Positions 1 to 868 of a DNA stretch of 64,000 bases are shown here, piece by piece. Location: NCBI RefSeq assembly GCF_026210795.1, contig NC_089436.1, positions 620,001 through 684,000 on the forward strand. The letters run 5' to 3'. Below the pieces are notes generated by a model. The model was not told where the DNA came from. It was given only the letters and a program-made list of their open reading frames with translations, and ran no database searches. The DNA comes from Rhizophagus irregularis. Taxonomy: Eukaryota. The stretch's first letter is position 1, and each line of letters opens with the position of its first letter. The position numbers were made by a program, and so were the translations under genes.

Positions 1-705
1 TTACAACTAGTTGCTATAAATATTAAAGAAGAGGTAAGTCATTTCCTTACTGGATGAGTTTTTTTTTAAAAAAAAAAATCTGATAAGTATTAGCTATAGA
101 GTTACTTGGAGAAAGAGCAGAGAATCGGAAATTTTATACGAAACGTTCCTACTACCTTACAGGTATGGCCTAAAAATTATGCCGTATTTTAAGAGAATAT
201 CACATTAAATTTTTGTATGATATTCCAGAGAAATGAAAAAAAAGGAAGAGAAAAAAAAGGAACCTTGGATTCTAAGTTGGAGACCGAATTGTTTGAGAAT
301 GGAAATAGACGGAGTGATGATCCCAATTGCCACTCCATGGGATGTTCTTACCCTCCTTTATACAATCAACATTGGCGAACCTCCAATGCAGACTTTATTC
401 GATTATCAGATAGAATGGCTGTATCGACATTTAAAACAGTTAGCGAAGTGGATAATGATTTTAGAGCCAATGCACATGAAGATACAACTATGGCCGACAG
501 TAATAAATGTGGCGTGGAAATCAAACGACAAGGAAATCATGAAGGTCTCGTTCAGAGCGTCGCTAGTAGAAAACAGGAGTTCCAGAAAACAAATAGTAAA
601 GTTTCGACAGGAAGTCGATTTAGAGAATCACCATCTCTTTCCTCGGGACAATCATGGGAATTTGGTAAAGAATCAAAAGCCCTGGCTGTTCGGAAATTGT
701 GTTGA
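1..705 (+). CDS. Overlapping spliced reading frame (exons 1-33, 100-162, 229-705), hydrophilic, 5'-partial, ending at TGA 703-705 in frame with ORF 715-1167
   Basis: Introns gtaagt..tag (34-99) and gtatgg..cag (163-228) join in phase 0 to give LQLVAINIKEE-SYLEKEQRIGNFIRNVPTTLQ-RNEKK... with no stop until 703. Confidence 0.4.
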
Positions 706-868
706 AGTGAATACATGGTTCCATCTAGCGTCCCAGATACCCGAGCTACCAATCAGAACTTTTGCAATAATAACAGAAATACAAAAAACGAAACCATGTT
801 GCAGGAATTGCAAAACGGTGATGGCATGCAGAACACCAATGATCTTGCATCACTCATTAGATTATTGA
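233..868 (+). CDS. Putative zinc-dependent nucleic-acid deaminase-fold protein (YwqJ/toxin-deaminase-like), possibly extended upstream via exon 100-162
   Basis: 211-aa ORF with a CxE motif (WLFGNCVE) followed by a helix, a hydrophobic strand (IRTFAII) and a CxxC motif (KPCCRNC), in deaminase-fold order and spacing. The frame stays open across the GT-AG intron 163-228 into exon 100-162 (VTWRKSRESEILYETFLLPY). Confidence 0.55.
   Translation: MKKKEEKKKEPWILSWRPNCLRMEIDGVMIPIATPWDVLTLLYTINIGEPPMQTLFDYQIEWLYRHLKQLAKWIMILEPMHMKIQLWPTVINVAWKSNDKEIMKVSFRASLVENRSSRKQIVKFRQEVDLENHHLFPRDNHGNLVKNQKPWLFGNCVEVNTWFHLASQIPELPIRTFAIITEIQKTKPCCRNCKTVMACRTPMILHHSLDY

What the first reader, a model, noticed from the sequence alone, without database searches (positions are those of the whole stretch)
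698..717. The single stop separating frame 1 from the SUKH-like ORF sits on the putative catalytic Glu codon
Seen: TGT GTT GAA (C-V-E, frame 2, 698-706) contains TGA at 703-705 in frame 1. An A705-to-G change would turn TGA into TGG, fusing frame 1 to the SUKH-like domain, and turn GAA into GGA, removing the catalytic Glu. Established: A-to-I editing that corrects premature stops occurs in some ascomycetes, but it is not established for this lineage. Speculation: an editing or readthrough switch, possibly performed by the deaminase itself, toggles toxin and antidote. The mundane alternative is a recent C-to-T change at 703, which would be synonymous in frame 2, or independent initiation at ATG 715, 796 or 826.
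Basis: inference. Interest (0 to 1): 0.7.

Follow-up and report, generated by a model that had tools for sequence, protein, structure and literature searches.

The report
Overlapping deaminase-antidote gene, broken copy
The stop codon is most likely a plain mutation in a decayed gene copy rather than an RNA-editing switch, but the gene family is unusual: in these mycorrhizal fungi about 200 codons are read in two frames, one giving a predicted deaminase (likely a toxin) and the other leading into a predicted immunity domain (likely its antidote).

Summary
TGA 703-705 does overlap the GAA of the C-V-E motif. The editing-switch idea is not supported. Both homologous DNA loci read TGT GCC GAA: Arg in frame 1, Glu kept in frame 2. 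Among 25 annotated frame-1 homologs this position is Arg 12, Gln 11, Glu 1, Gly 1. UGA also lacks the U at -1 that fungal A-to-I editing prefers, and this copy has four other lesions. It is a nonsense allele. No RNA from this exact copy was found, so editing was not tested directly.

The real feature is the family. In Glomeromycota, a CxE/CxxC deaminase-fold ORF (top 22 fold hits all deaminase fold) overlaps out of frame, for about 200 codons, the low-complexity N-terminal half of an ORF ending in a SUKH-like domain. Both frames stay open far beyond chance. In an expressed paralog, most mRNA appears to start just upstream of the SUKH-ORF AUG. I infer a one-locus toxin-antidote cassette, wtf-like in logic but using two frames, often decaying to antidote-only copies. 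Toxicity, binding and translation of the deaminase frame are untested.

The parts
1..33 (+). Putative end of an upstream exon (..INIKEE), cut by the window start
   Evidence: GTAAGT donor at 34. Gene models P0030 and P0038 join a similar exon to the deaminase frame. Splicing not seen in RNA; inferred.
34..93 (+). Putative intron 1, or 5' leader of the short transcript; likely transcript start near 52
   Evidence: cDNA-like loci L001 and L002 both begin at the position matching window ~52. In a paralog, 118/96/26 reads continue into this T-tract.
94..162 (+). Exon 2, read in two frames in homologs; broken here
   Evidence: Alignment with L001/L002; boundaries.
96..99 (+). Lesion: ATA where homologs have the frame-1 start ATG; the same base makes TAG in the upstream deaminase frame
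   Evidence: The closest homolog P0001 still begins MELLG.
114..115 (+). Lesion: 11-nt deletion (frameshift) in exon 2
   Evidence: Gap against both loci. The P0001 model shows the same shifted peptide.
163..228 (+). Intron 2 (66 nt, GT..AG), keeps both frames
   Evidence: Absent from L001/L002. Spliced in most paralog reads, retained in 5/10/4 reads.
230..868 (+). Frame 2: deaminase-fold ORF, still open; possible Met at 233 and 299
554..556 (+). Arg where the family has Gly (FGAS motif, G in 34 of 39); possibly damaging
   Evidence: The only one of 19 columns conserved at 75% or more where the window differs.
692..706 (+). G-N-C-x-E motif (predicted Zn ligand and catalytic Glu)
   Evidence: G 25/31, N 27/31, C 30/32, E 30/32. 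Aligns with NCAE of cytidine deaminase.
703..705 (+). TGA in frame 1: nonsense allele at a codon that is CGA in both homologous loci
800..811 (+). CxxC motif (predicted Zn ligands)
   Evidence: C 19/21 and 20/23.
229..837 (+). Frame 1: hydrophilic N-terminal half of the SUKH ORF, overlapping the deaminase frame
   Evidence: Continuous in homologs. Hydrophobic fraction 0.29-0.32 against 0.40-0.44 for frame 2.
838..1164 (+). Frame 1: SUKH-like domain (predicted antidote), single-coding region
1165..1167 (+). Lesion: TAA after a 19-nt deletion, removing the ~40-aa basic C-terminal tail
   Evidence: P0001, P0006, P0007, P0008 and P0009 also end at AYD.

Best explanation
The TGA at 703-705 is most likely an ordinary nonsense mutation in a decayed copy of a dual-coding gene of Glomeromycota, whose two frames encode a predicted zinc deaminase (likely a toxin) and a long ORF ending in a predicted SUKH domain (likely its antidote). 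Shown: the two-frame layout, both frames open beyond chance, the deaminase fold and motifs, sense codons in homologs, intron 2 splicing. Inferred mechanism: the common short mRNA starts just upstream of the SUKH-ORF AUG and makes antidote. The deaminase frame is made rarely, from an upstream exon spliced onto exon 2 or by leaky scanning to a downstream AUG. The overlap locks antidote to toxin. Copies then decay, often by CpG transitions at this same codon: one product loses the catalytic Glu and keeps the antidote ORF (Gln), the other is this stop. Odds: nonsense allele about 0.9; selected dual coding about 0.9; toxin-antidote function about 0.55.
For: Codon state: CGA in 2 of 2 DNA loci. Of 42 proteins examined, 25 carry the frame-1 motif, with Arg 12, Gln 11, Glu 1, Gly 1. 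Gln falls in six separate subclades, several with Arg sisters. The Arg column four residues upstream decays the same way (R13, Q9, W3). Four further lesions in this copy.
Dual coding: 0 stops in the deaminase frame in 3 of 3 DNA sequences, against 6-8 expected. 0, 0 and 1 stops in frame 1, against 18-21 expected. Random divergence keeps both frames open in under 1% of runs. Forced frame-2 stops in 22 proteins: 4 of 77 Met against about 21 expected.
Deaminase: model pLDDT 84; rows 1-22 of the wide fold search are deaminase-fold, best Z 6.7, rmsd 2.7 over 99; TIGR01354 E 0.0012 for P0033; 65 representatives.
SUKH: Atlas US22 0.90, SMI1_KNR4 0.85; best fold hit a SMI1/KNR4 protein. SUKH domains are listed as immunity proteins of YwqJ and XOO2897 deaminase toxins (PMC3239186, passages).
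Transcript: 5' loose ends of median 16-26 nt and no spliced exon-1 row shown.
Against: The window's closest relatives carry Gln, not Arg (sister P0001, support 92/87), so the immediate ancestral codon is not fixed. CpG-specific decay is clear in L001 (8 of 22 against 0 of 21 GpC) but not in the window (7 of 23 against 6 of 31). Substitutions in the overlap show no clean codon periodicity for either frame. SUKH fold support is weak: Z 4.8, tied with cystatins. No Pfam hit for either product. No toxicity, activity or translation of frame 2 was observed. L001 and L002 each carry a 5' frameshift, real or an assembly error, so no fully intact DNA copy was read end to end. This copy keeps an open deaminase frame with all Zn ligands while the full antidote ORF is broken; that is awkward for a toxin unless the copy is silent or inactive. 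18 loose-end rows were hidden.
Confidence: 0.6

Rival explanations
1. One reading: A-to-I editing or readthrough at 705 toggles deaminase and antidote.
For: The geometry would work. Editing of a UAG stop controls the Neurospora rfk-1 poison (bioRxiv 10.1101/2020.12.30.424869, abstract). RNA of this copy is untested.
Against: The stop is not conserved. Fungal editing prefers U at -1 and corrects UAG, not UGA (PMC11156358, passages); here -1 is G. The motif and best fold hits are of cytidine-deaminase type. Paralog reads show no A>G excess (A>G 24-29 places, G>A 25-27). The start codon and exon 2 are also broken. A search for such editing in Mucoromycota gave 1 paper, on Agaricomycetes (listing only).
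Confidence: 0.03
2. The cassette is real dual coding, but the deaminase is a defence or mutator enzyme (against transposons, viruses or foreign nuclei) or a host-directed effector, and SUKH is its regulator or adaptor, with no selfish killing.
For: PMC3239186 (passages) proposes such roles for expanded fungal deaminases. Eukaryotic SUKH domains act as adaptors (PMC3113570, passages). The same anatomy fits.
Against: Frequent loss of the catalytic Glu with the SUKH ORF retained (11 of 25), and four independent frameshifts of one class that route the deaminase frame into the SUKH frame, resemble antidote-only alleles of Spok and wtf (PMC12693581, passage). This is partly biased, because the proteins were found through SUKH.
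Confidence: 0.27
3. Only the SUKH ORF is functional today; the deaminase frame is a recently dead relic across the family.
For: The abundant mRNA favours frame 1. Many copies lost the Glu. Annotated frame-2 products are mostly fragments.
Against: Frame 2 is open with intact motifs across paralogs about 20% diverged in DNA, and CxE/CxxC are kept down to about 23-30% protein identity. Between L002 and an expressed paralog, frame 2 has 5 synonymous and 7 nonsynonymous codon changes, against 1 and 12 in frame 1.
Confidence: 0.08
4. The TGA is a sequencing or assembly error in the window.
Against: It is the expected transition product and comes with other lesions, two of them shared with independent records.
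Confidence: 0.02

Closest known systems
Bacterial polymorphic deaminase toxin plus SUKH immunity pairs (YwqJ-SUKH3, XOO2897-SUKH4; PMC3239186, passages)
   Same: Gx[CH]xE and CxxC deaminase ending after helix 3, directly followed by a SUKH-type domain. YwqJ-related clusters are the nearest named Atlas hits.
   Different: Eukaryotic, intron-containing, no secretion module seen. The immunity ORF starts upstream of the deaminase core and runs through it out of frame for about 200 codons. No conserved His in the insert; no PF14431 hit.
Schizosaccharomyces wtf poison-antidote drivers (PMC5478261, abstract)
   Same: One locus, multigene family, proposed alternative transcripts, antidote-only derivatives.
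   Different: wtf poison and antidote share a reading frame and are membrane proteins (recalled). Here they would be unrelated folds in different frames. Drive is not shown.
Podospora/Fusarium Spok (PMC12693581, passage)
   Same: Enzymatic toxin and antidote locked in one locus; versions with a dead toxin and live antidote.
   Different: Spok is one polypeptide (recalled); here there are two frames.
Premature-stop-codon correction editing in Fusarium/Neurospora, rfk-1 (PMC11156358, passages; bioRxiv 2020.12.30.424869, abstract)
   Same: An in-frame stop in a putative toxin-antidote locus.
   Different: UGA with G at -1, not conserved, in a lineage where editing was not found in print, in a copy with other lesions.
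Homotetrameric cytidine deaminase / blasticidin S deaminase (PDB 3b8f, 3oj6)
   Same: Best structural matches; three-Cys zinc site and Glu in register.
   Different: 11-18% identity, large inserts and an N-terminal extension; far below family cut-offs (19 of 114 bits).

Membership tests
Zn-dependent deaminase superfamily (CDA fold) | [HC]xE motif | tested here: met
   C 30/32, E 30/32; window C-V-E.
Zn-dependent deaminase superfamily (CDA fold) | PCxxC motif | tested here: met
   C 19/21, 20/23; in register with 2d30.
Zn-dependent deaminase superfamily (CDA fold) | Deaminase fold | tested here: met
   Rows 1-22 are deaminase-fold, best Z 6.7, rmsd 2.7 over 99. Foldseek gave nothing at E<=0.001. 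The model is of paralog L002.
Zn-dependent deaminase superfamily (CDA fold) | Catalytic activity and substrate | not testable with these tools
   Needs an assay.
YwqJ deaminase clade | Gx[CH]xE in helix 2 | tested here: met
   G 25/31.
YwqJ deaminase clade | Insert between strand 2 and helix 2 with a conserved His | tested here: not met
   Insert present, but no His column reaches 75%. Not filed as YwqJ; it looks YwqJ-like.
YwqJ deaminase clade | Insert before CxxC; truncation after helix 3 | tested here: met
   Model ends E162-168, H179-188.
YwqJ deaminase clade | Profile match PF14431 | tested here: inconclusive
   No hit. Atlas YwqJ-related TM 0.47/0.58, features 0.84.
SUKH superfamily | SUKH fold (four helices, six strands) | tested here: inconclusive
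   Model pLDDT 92. Best Z 4.8 to 3d5p (SMI1/KNR4), tied with cystatins; 2prv, Knr4 5j1b and Syd 3ffv are also in the top 50.
SUKH superfamily | Sequence or profile link to US22/SMI1_KNR4 | tested here: inconclusive
   Atlas US22 0.90, SMI1_KNR4 0.85, with recognition below the usual bar. No Pfam hit.
Toxin-antidote element | Toxicity rescued by the linked antidote | not testable with these tools
   Needs expression tests.
Toxin-antidote element | Tight conserved linkage of the two parts | tested here: met
   14 of 96 proteins are chimeric models with both parts (15 listed, P0002 dropped as a weak match); L001 and L002.
wtf-like dual-transcript driver | Two transcripts from one locus | tested here: inconclusive
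   Short transcript supported; spliced long transcript not seen.
Fungal premature-stop-codon correction editing | UAG target, U at -1 | tested here: not met
   UGA, G at -1.
Fungal premature-stop-codon correction editing | Stop conserved in homologs | tested here: not met
Fungal premature-stop-codon correction editing | A-to-G in RNA against DNA at the site | tested here: inconclusive
   Reads came from paralogs; 705 is not among 40 rows shown and 103 were hidden.

The most novel reading that the evidence does not exclude
Arbuscular mycorrhizal fungi carry an unrecognised family of selfish toxin-antidote cassettes. A nucleic-acid deaminase poison is hidden, mostly unannotated, in the alternative frame of its own SUKH antidote gene. 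The antidote is the default product, and the poison is released by an alternative transcript. It would act in conflict between nuclei sharing one cytoplasm or in non-self fusion, and related deaminases occur in Ascomycota.
Probability: 0.4. Interest if true: 0.85.

Novelty: new variant of a known kind. Interest (0 to 1): 0.6.

Why it matters
Long, selected two-frame overlaps are rare in eukaryotic nuclear genes (own knowledge). The literature searches run here found no toxin-antidote or killer element described for AM fungi. If real, the family gives a testable handle on competition among nuclei and on vegetative incompatibility in these coenocytic crop symbionts. It would add a new fungal deaminase clade, and it shows that gene callers annotate the linker frame and miss the conserved enzyme. 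The stop codon itself is ordinary.

Tried and rejected
No paralog in the window and no genome held.

Pfam names neither product. Foldseek against PDB gave no match at E<=0.001 for either model.

Complex prediction of deaminase with SUKH gave no answer (0.22, mark 0.34; alignments not used). It is not counted either way.

No relatives in viral contigs or prokaryote genomes. The single hit L003 is a 10-residue chance match.

hhalign of the SUKH alignment to the P0089 C-terminus was not significant (E 0.16).

Codon-position periodicity in the overlap was uninformative.

Earlier scan findings: none.

Literature searches for this system found nothing relevant in listings. The Crinkler-effector paper (10.1093/nar/gkw221, recalled) is not held, and supplements of PMC3239186 and PMC3113570 were not read; either could already list these domains.

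A conserved internal SUKH start was rejected.

Full report
Observation. Frame 2 reads C-V-E at 698-706 and frame 1 has TGA at 703-705, the only stop between ORFs 193-705 and 706-1167. The window is AT-rich, eukaryote-like DNA. Named homologs are Rhizophagus, Glomus, Funneliformis and Ambispora proteins. No genome is held and there is no paralog in the window.

The stop is not conserved. A search for longer relatives of the downstream ORF returned 28 proteins, most of which read frame 1 straight through this position. Of 42 proteins examined, 25 carry the local frame-1 motif: Arg 12, Gln 11, Glu 1, Gly 1. Annotated proteins cannot show a stop, so DNA matters more. Both loci recovered from metagenome contigs (2 of 34 candidate stretches) read TGT GCC GAA, which is CGA in frame 1 and C-A-E in frame 2. 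The two transition products of that CpG are TGA (this copy) and CAA (Gln, which turns the frame-2 Glu into Lys). Gln falls in six separate subclades of a SUKH-domain tree. The Arg column four residues upstream decays alike (R13, Q9, W3). CG methylation of orphan genes is reported for R. irregularis (PMC8647823, passages). Two results go against a neat story. The window nests among Gln copies, so its immediate ancestral codon is unsettled. And CpG-specific excess is seen in L001 (8 of 22 against 0 of 21 GpC) but not in the window (7 of 23 against 6 of 31).

This copy is decayed elsewhere too. It has ATA for the frame-1 start, and the same base gives TAG in the upstream deaminase frame. It also has an 11-nt deletion in exon 2, Arg for a Gly conserved in 34 of 39 rows, and a 19-nt deletion that truncates the C-terminus. 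Correcting 705 alone would not give the family's product.

Editing. Fungal A-to-I editing prefers U at -1 and corrects UAG (PMC11156358, passages); here the A follows G. Four RNA runs gave 818-2259 reads on the region, but 94-96% run on into unlike sequence, so they come from paralogs. A>G and G>A differences were balanced. Position 705 was not among the 40 rows shown, with 103 hidden. Editing of this copy is therefore untested, not disproved.

What is really there. Both frames are held open over about 200 codons. With frame 1 fixed, synonymous recoding predicts 6-8 stops in frame 2 (2.5-3.6 with own-codon shuffles); 0 are seen in 3 of 3 sequences, while the SUKH-only part has 7-9. With frame 2 fixed, 18-21 stops (5-10 by shuffle) are expected in frame 1; 0, 0 and 1 are seen. 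Random substitution at the L001-L002 spectrum keeps both frames open in 0.6-0.9% of runs. In 22 frame-1 proteins (three chimeric models dropped; rows not independent), Met followed by an A-starting codon, which forces a frame-2 stop, occurs 4 times in 77 against about 21 expected. Codon-position patterns were not informative.

Frame 2. A profile search of 1.84 billion representatives gave 65 hits. CxE and CxxC are kept even in distant members. The model of the L002 paralog (pLDDT 84) returns deaminase-fold chains in rows 1-22, best cytidine deaminase Z 6.7. Foldseek found nothing significant. Sequence hints agree (E 0.05; E 0.0012). The Atlas places a homolog near unnamed Ascomycota clusters (0.94; TM 0.66), then YwqJ-related bacterial proteins. 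It meets several YwqJ features listed in PMC3239186 (passages) but not the conserved His, so I call it YwqJ-like only.

Frame 1. The overlapped half is hydrophilic. The C-terminal domain folds confidently and is probably SUKH: US22 0.90 and SMI1_KNR4 0.85, best fold hit a SMI1/KNR4 protein at Z 4.8, tied with cystatins. Fourteen of 96 proteins are chimeric gene models holding both parts, including distant subfamilies.

Expression. Reads of an expressed paralog laid on L002 confirm intron 2. At the 5' end, 118, 96 and 26 reads continue into the T-tract upstream of the frame-1 AUG, with median loose length 16-26 nt. No spliced exon-1 row is shown, though 18 rows were hidden. L001 and L002 begin at the same place. 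So the common mRNA likely makes the SUKH ORF. Gene models P0030 and P0038 and the conserved exon-2 peptide suggest a longer spliced form for the deaminase; leaky scanning to the M-x-I-D-G Met is the alternative. Neither was observed. L001 and L002 each have a 5' frameshift; the one in L002 is absent from the laid reads.

Mechanism (inferred). A one-locus toxin-antidote cassette: antidote by default, deaminase rarely, linkage enforced by the overlap, and decay towards antidote-only copies. It works like bacterial deaminase-SUKH pairs (PMC3239186, PMC3482391, passages) arranged with wtf-like logic (PMC5478261, abstract), but it is a member of neither. Toxicity, neutralisation and drive are untested. 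A defence or regulatory role fits the same anatomy.

Novelty. Six keyword searches found no description of this system in listings. One relevant paper was not held and supplements were not read. Verdict: the editing switch is not supported; the stop is ordinary; the dual-coding family is a real and apparently undescribed variant of toxin-immunity pairs.

Noticed in passing
window 96-99: One base removes the frame-1 ATG and creates TAG in the upstream deaminase frame. This UAG, unlike the UGA at 703, is in the preferred fungal editing context, but the closest homolog keeps ATG, so it looks like another private lesion.
   Followed up: partly
window 114/115; L001 ~130; L002 ~90; P0012/P0031 models (window 345-412, also as RNA joint 344-434): Four independent frameshifts (-11, -2, +1, -68) all route the deaminase frame into the SUKH frame; possible repeated disarming, or ascertainment.
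   Followed up: partly
P0089, P0059, P0095: A distant Rhizophagus subfamily with the same deaminase motifs; P0089 ends in a different, US22-looking segment (by eye; hhalign not significant).
   Followed up: partly
Atlas rows: Unnamed Ascomycota clusters (51-102 members, 225-300 aa) match the deaminase over its whole length; their gene layout is unknown.
   Followed up: no
window 37288-38325 (-): Open 345-aa ORF that looks like a Tc1/mariner transposase (motifs recalled).
   Followed up: no
window 42606-49529 (-): Large multi-exon gene with Thr-rich ~54-aa tandem repeats and a Cys-rich N-terminal part; the opposite strand is also open over 400 codons (43144-44346).
   Followed up: no
window 4734-5327 (-): Sel1-like repeat ORF interrupted by stops (label recalled).
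   Followed up: no
window 58644-61030 (+) and 62010-63461 (-): Tandem kinase-like ORFs and a 483-aa ORF with a C-terminal kinase-like motif (labels recalled).
   Followed up: no
window 13968-15128, 20251-23589, 33164-34879: Several F-box/LRR-like genes; one has a low-complexity Asn-rich insert (labels recalled).
   Followed up: no
window 1448-1478: A 30-nt stretch attracts many partial RNA reads from elsewhere; likely a repeat or shared element.
   Followed up: no
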